A stretch of 64,000 nt of DNA from Deltaproteobacteria bacterium HGW-Deltaproteobacteria-19 (GTDB taxonomy: Bacteria > Desulfobacterota > Syntrophia > Syntrophales > PHBD01), in contig PHBD01000009.1 of the NCBI GenBank assembly GCA_002841865.1, forward strand, positions 55,911-119,910. The letters are read 5' to 3'. Below are positions 22,453 through 56,504 of this stretch, one piece after another. The notes beneath the pieces are model-generated. The model did no database searches, was not told the origin of the DNA, and saw only the letters and a list, made by a program, of their open reading frames with translations. Positions within the stretch are counted from its first letter, which is position 1; each line of letters starts with the position of its first letter. Both the position numbers and the translations under genes were made by a program.

Positions 22453-23436
22453 ATGATTCAAGTTGCCCAGATCGGCGTTGGATACTGGGGTCCCAACCTG
22501 CTTCGCAACCTGATCGCGAACCGGCGCTGCCGGGTGAAGACGGTGGCGGAACTCTCGGCTGAGCGCCGCAATTACGTCCAGTCCCTGTACCCCGCCGTCC
22601 GGGTGACGGAGCGGGTGGAGGACGTCCTCGCCGATCCGGATGTGGATGCGGTGATCGTCGCGACACCCGTGGCAAGCCATTACGATCTTGCCCTGGCGGC
22701 CCTGGACGCGGGGAAGCACATCCTGGTGGAAAAACCCCTGGCCCGGAGCGTGGCGGAGGTGGCGGCCATCGGCCGCCTGGCGGAGCAGCGGAAGCGGGTC
22801 GCCATGGTCGGCCATACCTTCCTCTACAATGCAGCCGTCCGATACGTGAAGAAGCTGATCGACGACCGGGAGATCGGCGACATCCGCTACATCTACAGCC
22901 AGCGCCTGAACCTGGGAAGGATCCGCTCCGACGTGGACGCCCTCTGGAACTTCGCCCCCCACGATGTCAGCATTATCCAGTACTGGCTGGGAGACCCCGA
23001 ACCGGTGTCGGTGGTGAAGCGGGGGGTCGACTTCATCCAGCCGGGAATCGCCGACGTGGTCTTCATGAACATTCACTATCCCGGGAAGATCATGGCCAAT
23101 ATCCACGTGAGCTGGCTGGATCCCGGCAAGGTGCGGTGCATGACCGTCGTCGGCTCCCGGAAGATGGTCGTGTACGACGACGTGGCGGACAACAAGATCA
23201 CCGTCTACGACAAGGGGATTGACCGCAAGGCCGTCCTGGGGGAGAACATGGACTATGACGGCCCCTCCTATCCGACCTTCAGCCTCCGGTCCGGCGACAT
23301 CCTGATCCCGAGGATTGACTTCCAGGAGCCCCTGAAGGTGGAGATCGACCATTTTCTCGACTGCATCGAAAAAGGAACGCCTTGCCTGACCGGCATCGAC
23401 CACGCCCGAAAGGTCGTGGAGATCCTCTCGGCGTGA
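22453..23436 (+). CDS. Gfo/Idh/MocA family oxidoreductase (WbpB-like sugar dehydrogenase candidate)
   Basis: 'IQVAQIGVGYWGPNLLRNL' Rossmann N-terminus and the 'ILVEKPLA' EKP motif. Confidence 0.85.
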   Translation: MIQVAQIGVGYWGPNLLRNLIANRRCRVKTVAELSAERRNYVQSLYPAVRVTERVEDVLADPDVDAVIVATPVASHYDLALAALDAGKHILVEKPLARSVAEVAAIGRLAEQRKRVAMVGHTFLYNAAVRYVKKLIDDREIGDIRYIYSQRLNLGRIRSDVDALWNFAPHDVSIIQYWLGDPEPVSVVKRGVDFIQPGIADVVFMNIHYPGKIMANIHVSWLDPGKVRCMTVVGSRKMVVYDDVADNKITVYDKGIDRKAVLGENMDYDGPSYPTFSLRSGDILIPRIDFQEPLKVEIDHFLDCIEKGTPCLTGIDHARKVVEILSA

Positions 23437-23460: not shown

Positions 23461-24702
23461 TTGAAGATTGTTTACCTCCATCAGTACTTCGTGACGCCCG
23501 ACATGCCCGGGGGAACCCGCTCGTACGAGATCGGACGCCGGCTGGTCGAGGCGGGCCATGAGGTCCACATGATCACCTCCGATCAGTCGGGGCGCTTCGA
23601 TGCGTCTGAAGGGTGGCGCATTACGGAGGAAGCGGGCATCCGCGTTCACTGGACGACGGTTCCATATGGAAACGAGATGCCGTACGGGGAGAGGATCAAG
23701 GCTTTTTTCCTCTTTGCCTGGCGGTCGGCCAGGGAGGCGGCGCGCGTGGGAGGGGATCTGGTCTTTGCCACGAGTACGCCCCTGACGATTGCGCTTCCCG
23801 CCGTGTATGCGGCGAAGCGCTGCGGCATCCCGATGGTTTTCGAGGTTCGCGACCTGTGGCCGGCCGTTCCCATAGCCCTGGGAGCGTTGAAAAATCCGCT
23901 GAGCCGCTGGCTGGCCCGGCGGCTGGAGCGATTTGCATACGGAAACGCTTCCCATGTGGTCGCGCTGGCCCCTGGGATGAGGGATGCCGTTGTGGAGACG
24001 GGCTATCCTCCCGAGCGGGTGTCCGTGATTCCCAACGGGGCCGATCTTGACCTGTTCGACGTACCGCCGGAGGAGGGAAAGCGCCTGCGGAGCCTCCATC
24101 CGTGGCTGCAGGACAGGCCGCTGGTCCTCTTCGCCGGGACGCTGGGCATGGCGAACGGCGTCGATTACCTGGTGCGGCTGGCATCTGCCGTGCGCATGCT
24201 CGATCCGGAAATACGCTTCCTGGTAATCGGCGGAGGGAAAGAGGTGGAGCGGGTCCGTGGCATGGCCCGGGAACAGGGCGTGCTGGAGAACAATTTCTTC
24301 ATGATGAATGCCATCCCCAAGCGGGAGGTTCCCGCCTGGCTGTCCGCATCGGATCTTGTCACCGCCCTCTTTACGGGTCCGAAGATTGTCTGGAAAGACG
24401 CGGTTCAGAACAAGTTTTTCGACGCCATGGCGGCGGGAAGACCCATCGTGAACAACTTCGATGGGTGGCAGTCCCGGATTGCCGAGGAGCACGGTGCAGG
24501 GCTCATCCTTCCGCCCGATGATCTCCCCGCAGCCGCCCGCCTGCTGACCGGCGCCATCCATAACCCGGAGTGGATGGAAGAGGCCCGGATCGCCGCCAGG
24601 CGGCTGGGGAGAGAGATGTTTTCCCGGGAGAGGCTTGCCAGGGAGCTTGAGCAGGTTCTGACGTCCGTCCGGAACAATCACAAGGCAGGGAAAAAATTCT
24701 GA
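23461..24702 (+). CDS. glycosyltransferase family 4, WbuB-like
   Basis: 'KIVYLHQYFVTPDMPGGTRSYEIGRRLVEAGHEVHMITS' is the characteristic WbuB-type N-terminus. TTG start per the ORF track. Confidence 0.8.
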   Translation: MKIVYLHQYFVTPDMPGGTRSYEIGRRLVEAGHEVHMITSDQSGRFDASEGWRITEEAGIRVHWTTVPYGNEMPYGERIKAFFLFAWRSAREAARVGGDLVFATSTPLTIALPAVYAAKRCGIPMVFEVRDLWPAVPIALGALKNPLSRWLARRLERFAYGNASHVVALAPGMRDAVVETGYPPERVSVIPNGADLDLFDVPPEEGKRLRSLHPWLQDRPLVLFAGTLGMANGVDYLVRLASAVRMLDPEIRFLVIGGGKEVERVRGMAREQGVLENNFFMMNAIPKREVPAWLSASDLVTALFTGPKIVWKDAVQNKFFDAMAAGRPIVNNFDGWQSRIAEEHGAGLILPPDDLPAAARLLTGAIHNPEWMEEARIAARRLGREMFSRERLARELEQVLTSVRNNHKAGKKF

Positions 24703-38951: not shown

Positions 38952-39830
38952 TCAAGATGTTTTCAACCCCAGACACTGATGAATCATCATCCCGATCTCA
39001 TCAGGCCTCTCCATGGGAATCAGGTGTCCCGCTCCCTCGACCAGGCGATAGGCGCCGCGCGGGAAGTGGCTTGCGGCTTTTTTCAGATCGATGAAGGAGC
39101 GATTTTCACTCTTCTCTCCCTCGATCACAAGAACCGGACAGGACACCTTTTCCAGGAACGGCCAGGGATTCAGGCGGTTTCCCCCCATGAACAGCGCCGC
39201 TTCCCGCCTGGGTGAGCAGGCCAGTTGCAGGCCGCCCGCGTCGGTTTCAAGAAAGCCGTACCGGATGTAGAGGTCCAGCATTTCCTCGTCCCAGGCCTCG
39301 AAAATTTTTCTGGAGCGAAGGTATTCCTTCACCTCCGCCGCGTCATGCCAGCCGTTCCGCCGTTTGATGGATTTGGAAGCCAGCGGGTGGTCTTCCACCC
39401 GCAAGTTCATCTCGTAGATCCCCTCGGGGAGAAAGATCGGCTCGATCAGGACGAGGCCCCGGGGAGCGAGACCGAACTTGGCGGCCGCAATGGTCATGAT
39501 GGTGGCGCCCATGGAATGGCCGACCAGGTATGGCCTGTCCAGGTGAAGCTGCCGGCAGAAAGTGGCCAGATCCTCGGCCAGGGTTTCCCAGGGGAGCCCC
39601 CCTTCGTCGGGATCCGCCGGGCGATGGTCGCAGAAATAGGGGGCCAGAACGCGGCAGGCCGGGGCAAGCCCCCGGGCGATGGGGTGCCACAGCCAGGGAA
39701 GGAAGCCCGTGGCGTGGAGCATGACCACGTCGGGCTCGCCCCCTTCATAGTAGAGATAATCCAGCCCGGCCCCCTCAACGGTTGTCCTGCGGACTTCCGG
39801 GAAAGGGTCTCGGTCTGCTCTTCCCGTCAT
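38952..39830 (-). CDS. alpha/beta hydrolase
   Basis: Nucleophile elbow 'VGHSMGA', and 'VVMLHATGF' in the oxyanion region. 292 aa. Confidence 0.8.
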   Translation of the reverse strand: MTGRADRDPFPEVRRTTVEGAGLDYLYYEGGEPDVVMLHATGFLPWLWHPIARGLAPACRVLAPYFCDHRPADPDEGGLPWETLAEDLATFCRQLHLDRPYLVGHSMGATIMTIAAAKFGLAPRGLVLIEPIFLPEGIYEMNLRVEDHPLASKSIKRRNGWHDAAEVKEYLRSRKIFEAWDEEMLDLYIRYGFLETDAGGLQLACSPRREAALFMGGNRLNPWPFLEKVSCPVLVIEGEKSENRSFIDLKKAASHFPRGAYRLVEGAGHLIPMERPDEIGMMIHQCLGLKTS

Positions 39831-40505
39831 GACCCGTTCACCCAGGTGACGATTTCCCCCATATCCGCCCGTTCCCGCGGAAACCGGTTCAGCGGTGCTT
39901 CATCGTCGGGTTGGCCGAGGACCACGCCCACGACGATCCGCTGCTCCTTCCGCACGGGAAGGAGTTTCCGGATCATGTCCGGATAGCTGACGGCGCAGGC
40001 CAGGATGCAGCTTCCCAGGTCCCGATCCCTGGCCAGGAGGCAGATCGTCTGGAGAAGCAGCCCGCAGTCCAGCATGGCGTATCCCTCCGGCAGGCTGCGG
40101 TCGGTGCACAGGATCAGAAGGACCGGGGCATCGAAAAGGGAAAACATGCGCACAGCGTAATCAAGACGCGCCTGCTTGTCCTCCCGCGGGATGGACTGTG
40201 CCTCCAGCACGACCCGGCCGGTGCCCGTGTAACGCCTCTTCAGGGCCTCCGGCCATTCCTGGGGCATCGGCGCTTCCGGTACGGCGGGAACACCCTTCAG
40301 GATTCAGGAAATTTTCACGATTCCCGGATCGGAAGGCCTCCAGTGCCTCGCCGGTGACCACGAAGATCTCCCAGGGCTGGGTGTTCCCCCAGGATGGGGC
40401 GTAGCAGGCGTCCTGCAGGATTTCCCCGATCAGCTCCCGGGGAACCGCTTCCCTGCGAAACTGGCGAATGCTCCGTCTTTCCCGGACGGCGGTGCGTAGT
40501 TCCAT
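39827..40505 (-). pseudogene. nitroreductase family gene split by a frameshift
   Basis: The N-terminal part (40505->40161, 'RRSIRQFRREAVPRELIGEILQDACYAPSWGNTQPWEIFVV') and the C-terminal part (40267->39827) are in different frames. Read upstream of its ATG, the C-terminal frame gives '..KGVPAVPEAPMPQEW', continuous with 'RENFLNPEG' of the N-terminal frame. Confidence 0.7.
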
Positions 40506-42030: not shown

Positions 42031-42055
42031 AAAAAAAAACAGCCCCCGCGGGGGA
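42031..42055 (-). terminator. rho-independent terminator after the rubrerythrin-like gene
   Basis: On the minus strand: AGCCCCCGCGGGGGCT GC-rich hairpin followed by a T9 run. Confidence 0.7.
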
Positions 42056-42110: not shown

Positions 42111-42578
42111 TTATCCCCCTGCGGTCTGCGGAAAGGCCGTATTGGTGTAAAGGTACTCGACCTTTTCCTTGTGTTTAAGCTCCTCCCTGGCCATCCGGAG
42201 GAGCATGTCCTTCACGGCTCCACCGGGATGAATGGCCGCCAGTTCCTGATAGAGGTTGTGGGCCGCCAGTTCTTTTGCCGCCGCCACGAGGTAGACGTCC
42301 CGCGTGGTCATCCCTTTGCGGATCTCCGGTCGCTCCGTGTGTTCGACCACCCTGTAGTCGGTGATCCGGCTCGCATCCGCCATGAGTTCGTAGAAGCCTC
42401 CCTCCCGGTAGCGCATCAGGTAGGCCTTGTGTCCCTTCTCTTCTTCCGCGAGAAACAGCAAGGTATCCTTCGCTTCCGTGTCCTCCACGAGTTCGTGAAG
42501 CTGCACATAGAACCGGTAAGCCTCCTCTTCGTTTTGGATGGCTCTCTCCAGAACGGCATCCATTGCTTTGTTTGTCAT
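42111..42578 (-). CDS. ferritin-like diiron protein (rubrerythrin family, no rubredoxin domain)
   Basis: Two ExxH motifs ('AEEEKGH', 'REELKHKE') in a four-helix-bundle-sized 155-aa protein. AGGAGG RBS. Confidence 0.75.
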   Translation of the reverse strand: MTNKAMDAVLERAIQNEEEAYRFYVQLHELVEDTEAKDTLLFLAEEEKGHKAYLMRYREGGFYELMADASRITDYRVVEHTERPEIRKGMTTRDVYLVAAAKELAAHNLYQELAAIHPGGAVKDMLLRMAREELKHKEKVEYLYTNTAFPQTAGG

Positions 42579-42649
42579 CGCGCGCCGGTTCCTCCTTCAT
42601 TACAAGCTGCCATCCCTACCATGCCCCGCTCCCGGTGGGGTTAGACACC

Positions 42650-42859
42650 TCACGACCCTCCATAGCCGACGCTTATCTTCTCCCCTTCCACGATGACGGG
42701 CACCTTGCGAACTCCTCCCGCCAGCACCAGCATGTCACGGAGTGCGTTGGGATCGGACTTTACGTCCAGGTAAACCGCCCGGTTTCCGAAGGCCTCCCTG
42801 GCCCGGTCCGTATACGGTCAACCAGCCTTGCCGAAGATGCGTACGGGCTGTCCTGCCAT
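42650..42859 (-). CDS. glutaredoxin/NrdH-like thioredoxin-fold protein with in-frame TGA (candidate selenocysteine) at the active site
   Basis: Own translation of the minus strand: MAGQPVRIFGKAG[TGA]PYTDRAREAFGNRAVYLDVKSDPNALRDMLVLAGGVRKVPVIVEGEKISVGYGGS*. The TGA (42818-42820) sits where the first Cys of CPYC lies. A hairpin lies 3' of it. Not in the ORF track. Confidence 0.65.
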
Positions 42860-42878
42860 CGTGCCGTTCCTTTCTTCC

Positions 42879-43364
42879 TCAGTATTCGGAGAGGTGGGAA
42901 AGCCCCCGCTCGCCCACGAGGATGATCCGTGTGTGATTTAGCCGCGATGCCAGGACCTTGCCGATGGATTTCATGACTTTGAAGCCCATCGGGCAGTCCT
43001 CTTCCATCAGTTCTCTCAGTTTCGGCGCGTCGATGGCGATGAAGGCTGATTCGTCGATGCAAAGGGCTCCCAGGGTATAGATGAACGGGTCCACTGCGGC
43101 GGACCAACCCATGGACTCTCCCTTGGTGATAATATCCAGCGTCACCTGGAGCGGCGGCTTGTGGGGCCCCACGTAGCTGTCCAGGACCAGGATGATCTTG
43201 CCCTTGGTTACGAGAAAGAGATATGCCGCCGGGTCCCCTTTCTTGTACATCTGCGCACCTGCCGGGTAGGCCTGTTCTTCTGCGATCGTTGCAAGTTTTT
43301 CCAGTTCCGCATCGGTGAACTCTGAGAAGAAATCAAACTGTTTCAACTGGCCGGCTGAAATCAT
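42879..43364 (-). CDS. stand-alone cyclic nucleotide-binding domain protein
   Basis: 'FDFFSEFTDAELEKLATIAEEQAYPAGAQMYKKGDPAAYLFLVTKGKI' has the typical cNMP-binding beta-barrel layout. 161 aa. Confidence 0.75.
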   Translation of the reverse strand: MISAGQLKQFDFFSEFTDAELEKLATIAEEQAYPAGAQMYKKGDPAAYLFLVTKGKIILVLDSYVGPHKPPLQVTLDIITKGESMGWSAAVDPFIYTLGALCIDESAFIAIDAPKLRELMEEDCPMGFKVMKSIGKVLASRLNHTRIILVGERGLSHLSEY

Positions 43365-46849: not shown

Positions 46850-47014
46850 TCAGCTCTTTCTGCTGGTCTTGGCGGTGAAGAGGGATATCATCTGCTTGAC
46901 CTTCCTGCCCTTGCACTTGGGGCAGGCGACCTTGGCCTTCCCGTGTTCCGAGATGCTCATGTTCAGGGTGAACTTTTTCCCGCAGTCCTGACATTGGTAA
47001 TCGTATGTCGGCAT
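46850..47014 (-). CDS. FmdB-family zinc-ribbon protein (CxxC-CxxC)
   Basis: Own translation: MPTYDYQCQDCGKKFTLNMSISEHGKAKVACPKCKGRKVKQMISLFTAKTSRKS*. GGAGG RBS. Below the ORF-track size cutoff. Confidence 0.8.
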   Translation of the reverse strand: MPTYDYQCQDCGKKFTLNMSISEHGKAKVACPKCKGRKVKQMISLFTAKTSRKS

Positions 47015-52931: not shown

Positions 52932-55900
52932 ATGAGACTTCAACGGCTCGAAATAACGGGTTTTAAATCTTTCCGGGATCGCATTGTCCTTGATTTCTCG
53001 GAGGGCATCAGCGGCGTTGTCGGGCCCAACGGGTGCGGCAAGAGCAACGTCGTCGACGCCGTCCGGTGGGTCATGGGTGAGCAGCGGGTGAAAGCCCTCC
53101 GGGGCAGGAAGATGGACGACGTGATCTTCAACGGGAGCGAGGAGTCCGCCCCGGTGGGCCTGGCGGAAGTCACCATGGTCCTGGCCGACGACGGCCGCAG
53201 TTTTCCCGAGCCCTACGAAGCCATGACGGAGGTCAGCATCACCCGGCGGATCATCCGCGACGGCGACAGCGAATATTTCATCAACAAGGTTCCCTGCCGC
53301 CTTCTGGATGTCCGGGAGTTCTTCCTGGGGACCGGAGTAGGCGTCCGGGGTTATTCCATGGTGGAGCAGGGGAGCGTCTCGAGCCTCGTGGAGGCCAGGC
53401 CGGAGGAGCGGCGGCAGTTCATCGAGGAGGCGGCGGGCATCTCCAAGTTCAAGAGCCGCAAGGAGTCGGCCATCCGGAAGATGGAGACGACCCGGCAGAA
53501 TCTCACCCGCATGAACGACATCATCCGGGAGGTGAAGACGCAGCTGAACGCCATCTCCCGTCAGGCAAAACGGGCCGAGCAGTACAAGGCCCTGCGGAAG
53601 GAGATCCGGGAGGGCGAAATCGTCCAGATGCTGCAGGCCTATGCGGATCAGACGGCCCGGAACACGACCCTGGAAGAGACCCGCAACGCCGCCCGGGAGA
53701 AGGAGGAGGAACTCCGGGGAAAGCTCGGTGTGTCGGAAGCGGCCTGGGAAGCAGCCAAGACGGAGGCCGTGGCCCGGGAAGGAGATCTGAATCGACTGCA
53801 GGAGACCCTCTACGAGCTCCGGAACGTCATCTCGTCCAGGGAACAGTCGATCGCCTTCCAGCGCCAGCAGACGGAGGAGCTGACCCGGCAGCGGGAGCGG
53901 GAGACCGAAGAGATCGGACAGCTCTCCGGCCGGGTGGAGGAGTTCCGGCGCGAAACCGCTGCGGGAGAGGTCCTCGAACAGGAACTGTCGGACGAGATTC
54001 TCACGGCTGAGGCGGACCTGCGGGATCTCCAGGAAGCGCTGGAGGAATACCGTCAGCAGGATCGGTCGGCCCACCGCGAACTGGAGGAAAGGAAAGTCCA
54101 GTTCATAGAACTGATCAAGGAAAAAACGACCGCCAGGAACCGGCTGACGGCCCTGCAGAAGAACCGCGAGGACCTGGAACGCCGGGAGGCCCGGGACGGC
54201 CGGGAGCTGGATGAACAGACCCGCCGCAAGGAGCAGCTCCGGGAGACCCTGGCGGGGCTTGCCACCGGGCTGGCCGAGGACGAAGGGAACCTGGACGACC
54301 TGATCATCCGGAGGGGGGATGCCTCCGACGAATTGAAACGCACCCGTCTGGAACTGGAGGAGACGGACGAGCTCATCACGGAGCGCAAACAGGAATTGGG
54401 GCGGCGATCTTCCCGTCTCCAGTCGCTCCGGGAGTTTTACGAGGGGTACGAGTGGTGCGGCGAAGGGACGCGCGCTCTCCTGGGGAACAAGCAGGAGAAG
54501 GCGCCGGAAGGCCTTCCCCGGGAGTCCTTCCTCGGCCTCGTGGCGGATCATATCGATGTTCCCAGGGACTACGAGGCGGCCGTGGAGGCCGTGCTGGGCG
54601 ATAAGCTTCAGTATATCCTCGTGAAGAACCAGTTCGACGGCGTCAAGGCCATCGATTACCTCAAGAGCGGCGCCTTCGGGCGGTGCAGCTTTGTCCCCGT
54701 CGAGGTCCGAAACTATGCAGACGGCGGAAGCGCGACGCCGGTCCACCTCCAGGAGACCGTGCGACTCCTCGATGTTGTCCATGTCCGCGAAGATTTTCAT
54801 GACGTGGCCTCCTGCCTGCTGGGGGATGTCCGGGTCATCCCCGACCTGTACCGCGGTGTGTCCCTGTGGAGGCAGAACGGGTTCCGCGGCACCTTCGTCA
54901 CCCGGGACGGGGATCTCATCAGCCCGCACGGGGTCGTGACGGGGGGCGTCGCCTCGGGCGGGGAACGGAGTCCCCTGCAGAACAAGCGGGAGATGACGGA
55001 ACTGGAGGCTGAGGTCCAGTCCCTGGAAGATGCAATCTCCGAAGCGGTGGACCGGAAGAAGGAATTCGCCTCGCTGATCGCCCAGTGGGAAGAGGAACTC
55101 GTCCGACTGCGGGGCGAGGTTCACCGGATGGAGATCCAGATCAACGGCCGTCGGAAGGACTTGGAGCGCTACGAGGACGAGTCCCGGCGCATCGACCAGC
55201 GGCTCCGGGTCCTGGGGTTCGAGCGGGAGCGCCTCCAGGCGGAGGAGCAGGAACTCGTCCGGCAGGTGGAAGAGGTGCAGGTCGATCTGGCTTCCTGGGA
55301 AGCGCGCGAGAAGTCCATGAGCGACGAGATGGCGGGCATCCAGAGCCGATGGGACGGGATCCGGGCCGACCTCGAGGACCGGGAATCCCTCCTGACGAAT
55401 CGGAAAGTAGGCATGGCCGCCCTCCAGCAGCGCCGGGAGGCCAATGAGCGGACGCTGGAGCGGCTGCACCGCTCCCTCGATCAGACCGTCCGGGATCTCG
55501 AAGCCCGGCAGGCAGGCATCGAGACGGCCGTCCGGAAGCTGGCGGAATACGCCGCCCGGATCGAGGAAGACAAGGCCGTCCTGACCGCGTCTTATCAGGA
55601 AATGGAGGCCTTGGAGGCGGACCTCGGCGCCCGGAAGGAAATCCACCGGAAGCATGAGGAGGACCTGCGCACCCTGGAGGAAGGCATGCGGATCCTCAAG
55701 GGGCAACTCGAGGAGGCGGCGCGGGGGACGAGCGACTGCGAGCTGGCATGCCGCGAGATCGCCTTCCAGATGGAATCTCTCAAGCAGAATCTGCAGGCCC
55801 GGGACCAGGACGAAGTGGCCCGCCTGCTCGAATCGTTCCGGCCGATCGAGGAGGAAGCCCTCCGGGAGCTCCAGGAGAAGCTGGAGCGGAACCGACGAAC

Positions 55901-56504
55901 CCTGGAGGGTTTCGGGGAGGTGAACCTGCTGGCCGACGAGGAATACGCCCAGCTGAAGGAGCGTTTCGATTTCCTGACCGCCCAGGCGGAGGACCTCCAG
56001 AAGTCGCTGGACATCCTCCAGCAGACCATCACCCGGATCAACCGCATTTCCCGGCAGCGATTCGCCGAGACCTTCGAGGCCGTGAACGCCTGTTTCCGGA
56101 GCGTTTTCTCCCGCCTCTTCCCCGGAGGCCGGGGGGAGCTCCGCCTTACCGACGAGACGGACATGCTCGAGACGGGAGTGGACATCGATATCCAGGTCCC
56201 GGGCAAGCGGACCCAGAACATCACCTTGCTCTCGGGCGGGGAAAAATCCCTCGCCGCCATCGGGCTGATCTTCGCCATCATCCTGCACCGGCCGTCCCCT
56301 TTCGTGATCCTGGACGAAGTGGACGCCGCCCTCGACGACGCCAACATCTCCCTCTTCAACCGCCTGGTCCAGGAGATCGCCGCCTCGTCGCAGATCATCA
56401 TGGTGACTCACAACAAGCGGAGCATGGAGATAGCCGGGAGCCTCTACGGTGTGACCATGCAGAAGCAGGGGATATCCACCGTCGTCTCCGTGAATCTCCA
56501 GTAG
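52932..56504 (+). CDS. smc: chromosome segregation protein SMC
   Basis: 'MRLQRLEITGFKSFRD...VVGPNGCGKSNVVDAVRWVMGEQ' Walker A, long coiled coils and a hinge. C-terminal 'LLSGGEKSLAAIGLIFAI' signature and 'FVILDEVDAALD' Walker B. Confidence 0.95.
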   Translation: MRLQRLEITGFKSFRDRIVLDFSEGISGVVGPNGCGKSNVVDAVRWVMGEQRVKALRGRKMDDVIFNGSEESAPVGLAEVTMVLADDGRSFPEPYEAMTEVSITRRIIRDGDSEYFINKVPCRLLDVREFFLGTGVGVRGYSMVEQGSVSSLVEARPEERRQFIEEAAGISKFKSRKESAIRKMETTRQNLTRMNDIIREVKTQLNAISRQAKRAEQYKALRKEIREGEIVQMLQAYADQTARNTTLEETRNAAREKEEELRGKLGVSEAAWEAAKTEAVAREGDLNRLQETLYELRNVISSREQSIAFQRQQTEELTRQRERETEEIGQLSGRVEEFRRETAAGEVLEQELSDEILTAEADLRDLQEALEEYRQQDRSAHRELEERKVQFIELIKEKTTARNRLTALQKNREDLERREARDGRELDEQTRRKEQLRETLAGLATGLAEDEGNLDDLIIRRGDASDELKRTRLELEETDELITERKQELGRRSSRLQSLREFYEGYEWCGEGTRALLGNKQEKAPEGLPRESFLGLVADHIDVPRDYEAAVEAVLGDKLQYILVKNQFDGVKAIDYLKSGAFGRCSFVPVEVRNYADGGSATPVHLQETVRLLDVVHVREDFHDVASCLLGDVRVIPDLYRGVSLWRQNGFRGTFVTRDGDLISPHGVVTGGVASGGERSPLQNKREMTELEAEVQSLEDAISEAVDRKKEFASLIAQWEEELVRLRGEVHRMEIQINGRRKDLERYEDESRRIDQRLRVLGFERERLQAEEQELVRQVEEVQVDLASWEAREKSMSDEMAGIQSRWDGIRADLEDRESLLTNRKVGMAALQQRREANERTLERLHRSLDQTVRDLEARQAGIETAVRKLAEYAARIEEDKAVLTASYQEMEALEADLGARKEIHRKHEEDLRTLEEGMRILKGQLEEAARGTSDCELACREIAFQMESLKQNLQARDQDEVARLLESFRPIEEEALRELQEKLERNRRTLEGFGEVNLLADEEYAQLKERFDFLTAQAEDLQKSLDILQQTITRINRISRQRFAETFEAVNACFRSVFSRLFPGGRGELRLTDETDMLETGVDIDIQVPGKRTQNITLLSGGEKSLAAIGLIFAIILHRPSPFVILDEVDAALDDANISLFNRLVQEIAASSQIIMVTHNKRSMEIAGSLYGVTMQKQGISTVVSVNLQ

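What the first reader, a model, noticed from the sequence alone, without database searches (positions are those of the whole stretch)
42650..42859. Unannotated glutaredoxin-like gene with TGA at the active-site Cys position: candidate selenoprotein
The ORF track has nothing between the cNMP-binding gene and the rubrerythrin-like gene. The minus strand there reads ATG (42859) ... 13 codons ... TGA (42820-42818) ... 55 codons ... TGA. The product is MAGQPVRIFGKAG-U-PYTDRAREAFGNRAVYLDVKSDPNALRDMLVLAGGVRKVPVIVEGEKISVGYGGS. This has the layout of small Grx/NrdH/YruB-type thioredoxin-fold proteins: beta1, then the CPYC active site, then a cis-Pro 'VPVI', then a terminal 'GYGG'. The TGA replaces the first Cys, giving U-P-Y-T; UxxT/S motifs are common in thioredoxin-fold selenoproteins. 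Coding character continues unchanged past the TGA. Eleven nt 3' of the UGA a hairpin can form: CC-GGGCC-[AGGGA]-GGCCU-(UC bulge)-GG. Its G-rich apical loop lies about 19-22 nt from the UGA, which fits a bacterial SECIS element. A GAAAGGAA RBS precedes the ATG.
Basis: partly seen in the sequence, partly recalled or inferred. Interest (0 to 1): 0.8.

Follow-up and report, generated by a model that had tools for sequence, protein, structure and literature searches.

The report
Known two-selenocysteine glutaredoxin-like gene

Summary
On the minus strand an ORF starts at ATG 42859 and has an in-frame TGA at 42820-42818, in the position of the first Cys of the glutaredoxin CPYC motif. The second TGA (42652-42650) is not the stop. 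It is followed by GGT GTC TAA, so the product is 72 aa and ends S-U-G-V-stop at 42641. With U written as C, the product matches NCBIfam NF041114 "UXX-star selenoprotein family 1" end to end (100.8 bits, cutoff 72). A 2026 review lists this family as a two-Sec protein with a UxxT motif. Among 83 distinct homologous genes from several phyla, codon 14 is TGA in 75 and TGC/TGT in 8. Codon 70 is TGA in all 83, followed by Gly and Val codons that vary at synonymous sites, then a stop. Each UGA is followed by a hairpin with compensatory changes and a GGU-type loop at about the spacing of the E. coli fdhF SECIS. The second hairpin lies beyond the true stop. Selenocysteine machinery could not be checked, since none lies in the window. 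Function is uncharacterised; I infer a redox pair formed by Sec14 and the flexible tail Sec70. Verdict: an ordinary member of a known family, of low novelty.

The parts
42641..42859 (-). Complete coding sequence of the UXX-star family 1 selenoprotein. It encodes 72 aa: MAGQPVRIFGKAG-U-PYTDRAREAFGNRAVYLDVKSDPNALRDMLVLAGGVRKVPVIVEGEKISVGYGGS-U-GV. The start is ATG 42859-42857 and the stop is TAA 42643-42641.
   Evidence: Sequence and translation. NF041114 scores 100.8 bits against a cutoff of 72 and covers profile positions 1-70 of 70. The same architecture is found in 83 distinct homologous genes.
42867..42874 (-). Shine-Dalgarno-like GAAAGGAA, 7 nt upstream of the ATG.
   Evidence: Read directly from the sequence. 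The start is conserved in close relatives as M-[AS]-[GE]-Q-P-V-R.
42818..42820 (-). First Sec codon (UGA, codon 14), at the position of the first Cys of the glutaredoxin CPYC motif. The motif here is U-P-Y-T.
   Evidence: TGA in 75, TGC in 5 and TGT in 3 of 83 distinct homologs. It aligns with the Cys of CPYC in solved glutaredoxins.
42786..42806 (-). SECIS element 1, inside the coding region. The upper stem is 42804-42800 paired with 42794-42790, the apical loop is AGGGA at 42799-42795, and an optional CC/GG extension lies across a UC bulge.
   Evidence: Upper helix is 96.2% paired in 69 Sec-form sequences. The pair at positions 21-27 (U of the UGA = 1), made of two synonymous third positions, is CG in 50, UA in 17, UG in 2 and never unpaired. 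Slid controls pair at 48% or less. The loop is AGGUC in 52/75 sequences, and the Arg21 codon is AGG in 63/75. All five pairs are standard pairs in 61/75 Sec forms but in only 3/8 Cys forms.
42650..42652 (-). Second Sec codon (UGA, codon 70).
   Evidence: TGA in 83/83 homologs. It is followed by GGN (79/83, all four synonymous codons), GTN (76/83), and then a stop in all 83 (TGA 52, TAA 24, TAG 7). Adding C-G-V raises the NF041114 score from 91.8 to 100.8 bits and completes the profile.
42624..42640 (-). SECIS element 2, lying entirely 3' of the true stop codon. It reads CCCCAC[CGGGA]GCGGGG: the stem is 42640-42635 paired with 42629-42624 and contains one A.C mismatch, and the loop is 42634-42630.
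   Evidence: In 78 sequences the helix is 92.9% paired. All 6 pairs show compensatory changes. The covariation score is 0.685 against 0.304 in shuffles (0/500 reach it), and slid controls pair at 45% or less. The first loop nucleotide is at position 21 from the U of UGA in 52/78 sequences, and 67/78 loops contain GU. There is no U-tract, so it is not terminator-like.
42879..43364 (-). Upstream gene, probably co-transcribed: a 161-aa protein with a cyclic-nucleotide-binding domain.
   Evidence: Pfam PF00027, E = 1.4e-7. The intergenic gap is 19 nt. A homolog sits immediately upstream, on the same strand, in 15 of 68 loci that have enough flank.
42111..42578 (-). Downstream gene, probably co-transcribed: a 155-aa rubrerythrin/ferritin-like di-iron family protein without a rubredoxin domain.
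   Evidence: Pfam PF02915, E = 6.6e-13. A homolog lies immediately downstream in 12 of 66 loci. The only terminator-like site of the unit follows this gene, at 42055-42043.

Best explanation
This is a member of the already described UXX-star selenoprotein family 1 (NCBIfam NF041114). The product is a 72-residue minimal glutaredoxin-fold protein made by recoding two UGA codons as selenocysteine.

Shown:
- Sec14 occupies the nucleophilic position of the CPYC motif. The motif is U-P-Y-T, with Thr where the resolving Cys would be.
- Sec70 sits three residues from the C-terminus (S-U-G-V-stop), in a tail that replaces the C-terminal helix of ordinary glutaredoxins.
- Each UGA has its own hairpin about 13-20 nt downstream with a G-rich loop. 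The first hairpin is inside the coding sequence. The second lies wholly beyond the real stop codon, in the 62-nt spacer before the next gene.

Inferred from the known bacterial mechanism:
- Each hairpin is a SelB-binding SECIS that brings Sec-tRNA(Sec) to the UGA held at the right distance.

Inferred mechanism of the protein:
- The flexible tail Sec70 swings onto Sec14 and the two form a reversible selenenyl-selenide. The tail thus supplies the resolving residue that the UxxT motif lacks, much as the GCUG tail works in mammalian thioredoxin reductase.
- In this lineage the protein probably works in an oxidative-stress unit. It is probably co-transcribed with a cNMP-binding-domain protein and a rubrerythrin-family di-iron protein, just upstream of a DegP/HtrA protease gene.
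For: Identity:
- NF041114 scores 100.8 bits (cutoff 72) end to end.
- Pfam Glutaredoxin matches.
- NCBI names database homologs 'UXX-star selenoprotein family 1' (P0068, P0110).
- The review table lists the family with 2 Sec and a UxxT motif.

Sec14:
- There is a Sec/Cys pair: 75 TGA against 8 TGY.
- SECIS1 shows covariation at synonymous sites.
- The hairpin is weaker in the Cys forms: all five pairs are standard in 3/8 Cys forms against 61/75 Sec forms.

Sec70:
- The codon is TGA in 83/83 homologs. The next two codons are under amino-acid-level selection, and a stop follows in frame.
- None of the best 120 database homologs has Cys there. Of these, 74 were mistranslated as Trp at both sites and 44 were truncated at this TGA.
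- All 6 pairs of SECIS2 show compensatory changes.
- Loop position and sequence match the E. coli fdhF SECIS, whose sequence I verified.

Code:
- TGA is the normal stop in this genome, ending 32 of 50 called genes.

Fold and tail:
- The AF2 model of a 60%-identical homolog has mean pLDDT 83.5 and a beta-alpha-beta-alpha-beta-beta layout. It has no C-terminal helix, and residues 69-72 have pLDDT below 50.
- The best PDB matches are glutaredoxins, with TMq 0.64-0.74.

Operon:
- The gaps are 19 nt and 62 nt, and the only terminator-like site follows the rubrerythrin-family gene.
- The synteny recurs in 12-15 loci.
Against: - No selA, selB, selD or tRNA-Sec lies in the 64-kb window, so Sec decoding in this organism is assumed, not shown.
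- No Cys homolog was found for position 70. The classical Sec/Cys criterion is therefore met only for position 14.
- The window's two loops read GGGA rather than the usual GGU, and its SECIS2 stem has an A.C mismatch. Its closest relatives have GGGU or GGGC in the SECIS2 loop and a G-C pair at that position.
- Single-sequence folding is not significant (z = -1.57 and +1.22).
- The diselenide mechanism is inference only. No coordinates were available to measure the 14-70 distance, and the modelled homolog carried Trp at both sites.
- Gene neighbourhood is conserved in only about one fifth of loci and is diverse elsewhere. The oxidative-stress link is therefore weak.
Confidence: 0.9

Rival explanations
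1. Same gene and the same two selenocysteines, but the selenols do not cycle as a redox pair. Instead they act as soft-metal or metalloid ligands (Hg, As, Cu and the like), or carry another unknown substrate. This is the role the literature tentatively suggests for UXX-star proteins.
For: [quoted passage not shown] Position 70 is never Cys, which fits a need for selenium chemistry itself. ArsR-type regulators are neighbours in 2 loci.
Against: The full glutaredoxin catalytic scaffold is kept: the cis-Pro VPV motif, Lys at -3 of the active site, Arg at -3 of the Pro, and the GG motif. The recurrent neighbours are a rubrerythrin-family protein and thioredoxins, not metal transporters or mer/ars genes.
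Confidence: 0.25
2. One reading: a 69-residue selenoprotein with a single Sec at codon 14, in which the TGA at 42652-42650 is the genuine stop codon.
For: TGA is the commonest stop in this genome, ending 32 of 50 genes. Public pipelines call the Cys14 forms as 68-aa proteins ending there. No Cys is ever found at position 70.
Against: The codon is TGA in 83/83 homologs across phyla. The two following codons are Gly and Val with free third positions. A stop follows at exactly +3 codons in all 83. A covarying GGU-loop hairpin sits at SECIS distance from this UGA, including in the Cys14 forms, which have no other UGA to serve. The curated profile covers U-x-x, and including those residues adds 9 bits.
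Confidence: 0.04
3. A decaying glutaredoxin pseudogene with a nonsense mutation, or a gene read under a code in which TGA means Trp or Gly.
For: Many public gene calls translate both TGAs as Trp: 74 of the best 120 database homologs.
Against: The sequence 3' of the TGA is under strong purifying selection in 83 homologs from Syntrophaceae, Nitrospirota, Spirochaetota, Thermodesulfobacteriota and Firmicutes. The substitute residue at codon 14 is Cys, not Trp or Gly. TGA terminates 32 of 50 genes in the window. The Trp forms are mostly on contigs of about 1 kb or less and look like code-4 miscalls.
Confidence: 0.01

Closest known systems
UXX-star selenoprotein family 1 (NCBIfam NF041114, subfamily NF041212; for example WP_258313609.1 and the Pelotomaculum propionicicum proteins). 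The 2026 AEM review PMC13188914 also lists it as 'Distant Grx-like protein 1'.
   Same: Everything testable matches: length, glutaredoxin fold, the U-P-x-T motif, the C-terminal U-x-x-stop, two Sec, and an end-to-end HMM match above the curated cutoff.
   Different: Nothing of substance. In the window and its closest relatives the SECIS1 loop reads AGGGA rather than AGGUC. The window's SECIS2 loop reads CGGGA, where its closest relatives have CGGGU or CGGGC. The window's second hairpin also has one A.C mismatch.
Selenoprotein glutaredoxin of Clostridium oremlandii (cGrx1; UxxC; Kim et al. 2011, cited in PMC13188914; PDB 7c10/7c12 as Cys forms)
   Same: Glutaredoxin fold with Sec in the first position of the active-site motif. 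It is among the best structural matches (TMq 0.70-0.71).
   Different: That protein has one Sec, a resolving Cys (UxxC) and the normal C-terminal helix. The present protein has UxxT, no helix, and a second Sec in a C-terminal tail.
C-terminal -Gly-Cys-Sec-Gly tail of mammalian thioredoxin reductase, and its expression in E. coli with an fdhF SECIS placed after the stop codon (recalled from the literature, not checked here)
   Same: A Sec close to the C-terminus on a flexible arm that shuttles to a redox centre. The SECIS has to lie beyond the stop codon because too little coding sequence remains.
   Different: TrxR is a large flavoenzyme whose tail forms a Cys-Sec selenenylsulfide. Here the partner would be another Sec on a 72-aa glutaredoxin core, and the post-stop SECIS is natural, not engineered.
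E. coli fdhF SECIS
   Same: A hairpin whose apical loop starts about 21 nt from the U of UGA and carries AGGUC(U). The family consensus loops are A22-G-G-U-C for SECIS1 and A21-G-G-U for SECIS2.
   Different: The stems are shorter, and no conserved bulged U was identified. The window's own loops lack the U.
Classical glutaredoxins, NrdH and YruB-type glutaredoxin-like proteins
   Same: The thioredoxin/glutaredoxin fold, the cis-Pro VP motif, the GG motif, and the position of the nucleophile.
   Different: Scores are far below the curated cutoffs: GRX_bact 22.4 against 90, YruB 27.1 against 88.55, NrdH 13.2 against 131. There is no second active-site Cys and no C-terminal helix.

Membership tests
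[quoted passage not shown] | Score above the curated equivalog cutoff over the whole profile | tested here: met
   100.8 bits against a cutoff of 72, residues 6-72 on profile positions 1-70 of 70. Families 2 and 3 and the HUGP fusion fall below their cutoffs.
[quoted passage not shown] | C-terminal U-x-x-stop | tested here: met
   TGA GGT GTC TAA at 42652-42641. The same layout occurs in 83/83 homologs.
[quoted passage not shown] | N-terminal U/C-P-x-T motif at the glutaredoxin active-site position (the review lists UxxT with 2 Sec) | tested here: met
   U-P-Y-T at codons 14-17. Pro and Thr are invariant in 58 aligned sequences. The review table is quoted.
[quoted passage not shown] | Glutaredoxin/thioredoxin fold | tested here: met
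   Pfam PF00462 scores 27.6 bits against a cutoff of 22.9. The PDB profile search finds glutaredoxins. The AF2 model of homolog P0004 gives glutaredoxins as top Foldseek hits.
Bacterial SelB-dependent selenoprotein gene | The in-frame UGA aligns with Cys in homologs (Sec/Cys pair) | tested here: met
   Codon 14: TGA in 75, TGC/TGT in 8.
Bacterial SelB-dependent selenoprotein gene | Sec/Cys pair for the second UGA (codon 70) | tested here: not met
   No Cys at this position in 83 loci or in the best 120 database proteins. Support for Sec70 rests instead on codon conservation after the UGA and on SECIS2.
Bacterial SelB-dependent selenoprotein gene | SECIS hairpin with a G-containing apical loop about 16-37 nt from the UGA, conserved as a structure | tested here: met
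   SECIS1 is 96.2% paired with 2 covarying pairs. SECIS2 is 92.9% paired with 6 of 6 covarying pairs. Loop positions are 22 and about 21. Caveat: the window's loops are GGGA and lack the U.
Bacterial SelB-dependent selenoprotein gene | selA, selB, selD and tRNA-Sec present in the genome | not testable with these tools
   None in the 64-kb window: ARAGORN found 0 tRNAs, Rfam gave no hit, and Pfam annotation of about 50 ORFs found none. The rest of the genome is not available.
Bacterial SelB-dependent selenoprotein gene | Selenium actually incorporated into the polypeptide | not testable with these tools
   This needs 75Se labelling or mass spectrometry.
Classical dithiol/monothiol glutaredoxin (GRX_bact TIGR02181 and similar) | CxxC or CxxS active site, C-terminal helix after the GG motif, score above the family cutoff | tested here: not met
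   The motif is UPYT. The model has no helix after beta4. Scores are 22.4 bits against 90, 21.8 against 87.25, and for YruB 27.1 against 88.55.

The most novel reading that the evidence does not exclude
The two selenocysteines may form an intramolecular diselenide, which would make this a natural very-low-potential diselenide oxidoreductase on a minimal 72-residue glutaredoxin core. In this lineage it could be the dedicated electron donor of the adjacent rubredoxin-less rubrerythrin-family protein, under control of the cNMP-binding-domain protein. That would be a new selenium-dependent peroxide-defence module of strict anaerobes. A related point: in most relatives the true stop is also UGA, only 9 nt after the Sec UGA. 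The family would then be a natural test case for how SECIS spacing alone separates a Sec UGA from a stop UGA.
Probability: 0.15. Interest if true: 0.55.

Novelty: already known. Interest (0 to 1): 0.2.

Why it matters
For annotation: ordinary gene callers miss this gene, truncate it, or translate it with the wrong code. In public databases 74 of the best 120 homologs carry Trp at both Sec sites, and others are called 'glutaredoxin 3' and cut at the second UGA. The correct product here is a 72-residue, two-Sec protein ending at 42641.

For biology: the family is catalogued but has no experimentally known function. This locus adds a moderately recurrent context, with a cNMP-binding protein upstream and a rubrerythrin-family protein downstream, that could guide a first experiment.

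It also shows cleanly that a bacterial SECIS can sit entirely in untranslated RNA beyond the stop codon.

None of this changes what is already known about the family.

Tried and rejected
Only comparative analysis resolved them.
- A lower helix for SECIS1 (columns 11-13 with 33-35) is only 70.5% paired and shows no double changes. I dropped it.
- Rfam has no model that hits the window.
- The first protein search with a single sequence returned one hit, because the database holds mostly truncated or mistranslated forms. The profile search fixed that.
I modelled a Trp-form database homolog instead. The tool returns no coordinates, so the Sec14-Sec70 distance could not be measured.
- I looked for other selenoprotein genes or sel genes in the window. 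I annotated about 50 ORFs and re-read the unassigned gaps allowing TGA read-through. I found only ordinary genes.
- The same-frame ORFs at 22453-23436 and 23461-24702, separated by a TGA, are two separate enzymes (a GFO/IDH/MocA oxidoreductase and a glycosyltransferase), not a selenoprotein.
- A search for a universal gene partner across 66 upstream and 61 downstream neighbours found none.
- Haft & Tolstoy 2025 (mSystems), which the review cites for related UXX-star families, is not held in the library. The review credits family 1 to Zhang & Gladyshev 2008, but that paper's main text does not contain 'distant Grx'. BSepDB does not mention the family in its text.

Full report
OBSERVATION

- ATG at 42859.
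- Thirteen sense codons.
- TGA at 42820-42818.
- Fifty-five sense codons.
- TGA at 42652-42650.

GAAAGGAA lies 7 nt before the ATG. The ORF starts 19 nt after the stop of the upstream gene.

The frame stays open for exactly two more codons and then meets a different stop, at 42643-42641.

WHAT IT IS

With U written as C, the 69-residue version matches two libraries:
- Pfam Glutaredoxin, E = 3.3e-6.
- NCBIfam NF041114 'UXX-star selenoprotein family 1', 91.8 bits against a cutoff of 72. The match covers profile positions 1-67 of 70.

The three unmatched profile positions are the family's U-x-x. When C-G-V is added, the score rises to 100.8 bits and the match runs from position 1 to 70 of 70. The sister models (families 2 and 3, the HUGP fusion) and the classical glutaredoxin, YruB and NrdH models all stay far below their cutoffs.

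[quoted passage not shown] NCBI already names database homologs from Pelotomaculum propionicicum this way. The gene is therefore a member of a known, curated family whose members have two selenocysteines.

COMPARATIVE EVIDENCE FOR THE CODING SEQUENCE

- Five genome loci carry both TGAs in the same places. They come from two Syntrophaceae MAGs (about 82% identical protein), a Nitrospirota, a Spirochaetota and a Thermodesulfobacteriota MAG.
- A metagenome scan found more than 468 relatives, of which 80 were fetched.
- Over 83 distinct genes, codon 14 is TGA in 75, TGC in 5 and TGT in 3. This is a classical Sec/Cys pair.
- Codon 70 is TGA in all 83.
- The next codon is GGN in 79, and all four synonymous codons are used (26/25/18/10).
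- The codon after that is GTN in 76, and Ile or Leu otherwise.
- A stop follows in all 83 (TGA 52, TAA 24, TAG 7).

Free third positions, fixed first and second positions, and an invariant reading-frame end show that the two codons after the second UGA are translated.

TGA is nevertheless the ordinary stop in this genome, ending 32 of 50 called genes. The code is therefore not reassigned.

Of the best 120 database homologs, 74 carry Trp at both sites, which points to code-4 miscalls, mostly on contigs of about 1 kb or less. Another 44 are Cys14 forms cut off at the second TGA. None has Cys at position 70.

THE TWO SECIS ELEMENTS

Numbering here takes the U of each UGA as position 1.

SECIS1 lies in the coding region.
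- The family consensus is G19-C-C [A22-G-G-U-C] G-G-C29.
- The five-pair upper helix is 96.2% paired in 69 Sec-form sequences. It pairs at 48% or less when the 3' partner is slid.
- The most telling pair joins the third position of the Ala20 codon to the third position of the codon for residue 22 (Ser in most homologs, Glu in the window). It is C-G in 50 sequences, U-A in 17, U-G in 2, and never unpaired.
- Arg21 is encoded by AGG in 63 of 75 Sec forms. This supplies the loop GG.
- All five pairs are standard pairs in 61/75 Sec forms but in only 3/8 Cys forms. Two of those three are one nearly identical sequence that looks like a recent conversion.

SECIS2 begins 1-3 nt after the true stop codon in most homologs.
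- Its six-pair helix is 92.9% paired in 78 sequences.
- All six pairs show compensatory changes.
- The covariation score is 0.685 against 0.304 in shuffles, and 0 of 500 shuffles reach it. Slid controls pair at 45% or less.
- The loop starts at position 21 in 52/78 sequences, and 67/78 loops contain GU.

For comparison, the E. coli fdhF SECIS has the loop A21-G22-G23-U24-C25-U26. I recalled its sequence from memory and then verified it in 5419 of 5426 E. coli genomes. Both family elements therefore match the best-studied bacterial SECIS in loop sequence and in spacing.

In the window itself:
- SECIS1 occupies 42806-42786, with loop AGGGA and a core energy of -8.0 kcal/mol.
- SECIS2 occupies 42640-42624 and reads CCCCAC[CGGGA]GCGGGG, with one A.C mismatch.
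- In the SECIS2 loop the closest relatives have GGGU or GGGC, and they have a G-C pair where the window has the mismatch.
- The hairpin after the gene has no U-tract, and the scan does not call it terminator-like.

FOLD

I therefore modelled a 60%-identical database homolog, P0004, which carries Trp at both sites, using 57 relatives as the alignment.
- Mean pLDDT is 83.5.
- The topology is beta1-alpha1-beta2-alpha2-beta3-beta4.
- There is no C-terminal helix, and the last four residues have pLDDT below 50.
- Foldseek against the PDB returns glutaredoxins first: A. fulgidus Grx-1 (3ic4), the Clostridium oremlandii glutaredoxins (4tr0, 7c10) and E. coli Grx3 (3grx). TMq is 0.64-0.74.
- A profile search of PDB sequences aligns position 14 with the first Cys of CPYC.

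Besides the two Sec positions, the invariant or near-invariant residues include:
- the Lys three residues before the active site,
- Pro15 and Thr17,
- Arg51 with the cis-Pro motif V-P-V,
- the G-Y-G-G segment just before Sec70.

HOW IT PROBABLY WORKS

Shown:
- There are two recoded UGAs, each with its own structured element at SECIS distance.
- The fold is a glutaredoxin fold.
- Sec sits at the nucleophile position.
- Thr sits at the position of the resolving Cys.
- A second Sec lies in an unstructured C-terminal tail directly after the GG motif.

Inferred from the established bacterial mechanism:
- SelB bound to each hairpin delivers Sec-tRNA(Sec) to the UGA held at the proper distance.
- In the many relatives whose true stop is also UGA, that codon lies only about 12 nt before the loop. 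This is presumably too close for recoding.

Inferred for the protein:
- In glutaredoxins the GG loop borders the active site. A Sec two residues beyond it, on a flexible tail, can plausibly reach Sec14.
- I propose a reversible Sec14-Sec70 selenenyl-selenide that replaces the CxxC disulfide, in analogy to the tail of mammalian thioredoxin reductase.
- Position 14 tolerates Cys while position 70 never does. This suggests that the tail residue is the one needing selenium chemistry.

The main rival at this level is a role as a soft-metal or metalloid ligand, which the review mentions as a possibility. I rate it at about 0.25.

CONTEXT

- On the minus strand the order is: cNMP-binding-domain protein (43364-42879), this gene, a 155-aa rubrerythrin-family protein without a rubredoxin domain (42578-42111), a terminator-like hairpin with a T-run (42055-42043), and then DegP/HtrA (42004-40517).
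- The cNMP-domain gene is immediately upstream in 15 of 68 loci with enough flank. The rubrerythrin-family gene is immediately downstream in 12 of 66.
- Elsewhere the neighbours are diverse. They include thioredoxins, sigma factors, metallo-beta-lactamase-fold RNases, UvrB and ArsR regulators.
- The oxidative-stress association therefore holds for one lineage, not for the family.

WHAT COULD NOT BE SHOWN

- The window contains no tRNA-Sec, selA, selB or selD and no second selenoprotein gene. Whether this organism decodes Sec rests on the gene itself and on its relatives.
- Selenium incorporation, the Se-Se bond and the physiological partner all need experiments.

VERDICT

The gene end was misplaced, and the second selenocysteine with its post-stop SECIS was missed. 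The gene is a textbook member of an already curated family (NF041114). Novelty is low. The practical value is correct annotation (72 aa, two Sec, 42859-41 on the minus strand, ending at TAA 42641) and a context hint for a family that has no experimental function.

Noticed in passing
window 39827-40505 (minus strand), break near 40302: The nitroreductase gene downstream of HtrA is split into two overlapping ORFs in different frames. The intact 223-aa homolog in L001 aligns with residues 1-68 in one frame and residues 66-224 in another. This is either a frameshift pseudogene or an assembly error.
   Followed up: partly
database proteins P0003-P0120: Among the best 120 public homologs, 74 are translated with Trp at both Sec positions (GWPYT...GGSWGV), apparently through genetic code 4, mostly on contigs of about 1 kb or less. 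Another 44 are Cys14 forms truncated at the second TGA, and JGI labels several of those 'glutaredoxin 3'. One (P0093) has Leu at codon 14.
   Followed up: partly
L086:606-860 and L087 (the Cys14 form, P0001): This Cys14 form still carries an intact SECIS1 hairpin with an AGGUC loop. The other Cys forms have mostly lost the hairpin. It looks like a recent Sec-to-Cys conversion.
   Followed up: no
window 42799-42795 and 42634-42630; L001, L002, L006 and L007 at the same positions: In the window and its closest (Syntrophaceae-like) relatives the SECIS1 loop reads AGGGA instead of the family's usual AGGUC. The window's SECIS2 loop also lacks the U (CGGGA), while the relatives have CGGGU or CGGGC. 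This may reflect a lineage-specific SelB preference.
   Followed up: no
loci L002-L005 and many others, 9 nt after the second Sec codon: In 52 of 83 homologs the true stop after U-x-x is itself TGA. Two UGAs 9 nt apart are then read differently, one as Sec and one as stop. In the window the stop is TAA.
   Followed up: no
window 42882-43364 and 42114-42578: The cNMP-domain protein and the rubrerythrin-family protein give weak hits to two encapsulin-related models: the family 2B encapsulin shell protein (27.5 bits against a cutoff of 400) and the encapsulin-associated ferritin-like protein (21.9 bits against 125). Both are far below cutoff and probably reflect shared domains only.
   Followed up: no
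window 42043-42055 (minus strand): A GC-rich hairpin (TCCCCCGCGGGGG) followed by a run of T lies right after the rubrerythrin-family gene. It is the only terminator-like site between the cNMP-domain gene and HtrA.
   Followed up: partly
window about 80-32570: A long plus-strand cluster for polysaccharide or O-antigen synthesis. It includes GDP-mannose dehydratase-type epimerases, many glycosyltransferases, two Wzy-type ligases, flippases, asparagine synthase, a DegT aminotransferase and a sugar transferase.
   Followed up: no
window 57093-61667 and 52932-56504: A 1524-aa RHS/YD-repeat protein (14 RHS repeats) lies downstream of an SMC chromosome-segregation gene. An FtsY/SRP-receptor-type GTPase is at 62708-63643.
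   Followed up: no
window 46850-47014 (minus strand): A 54-aa FmdB-family CxxC-CxxC zinc-ribbon protein (TIGR02605, 60.5 bits against a cutoff of 31.3) lies in a stretch that otherwise has no long ORF.
   Followed up: no
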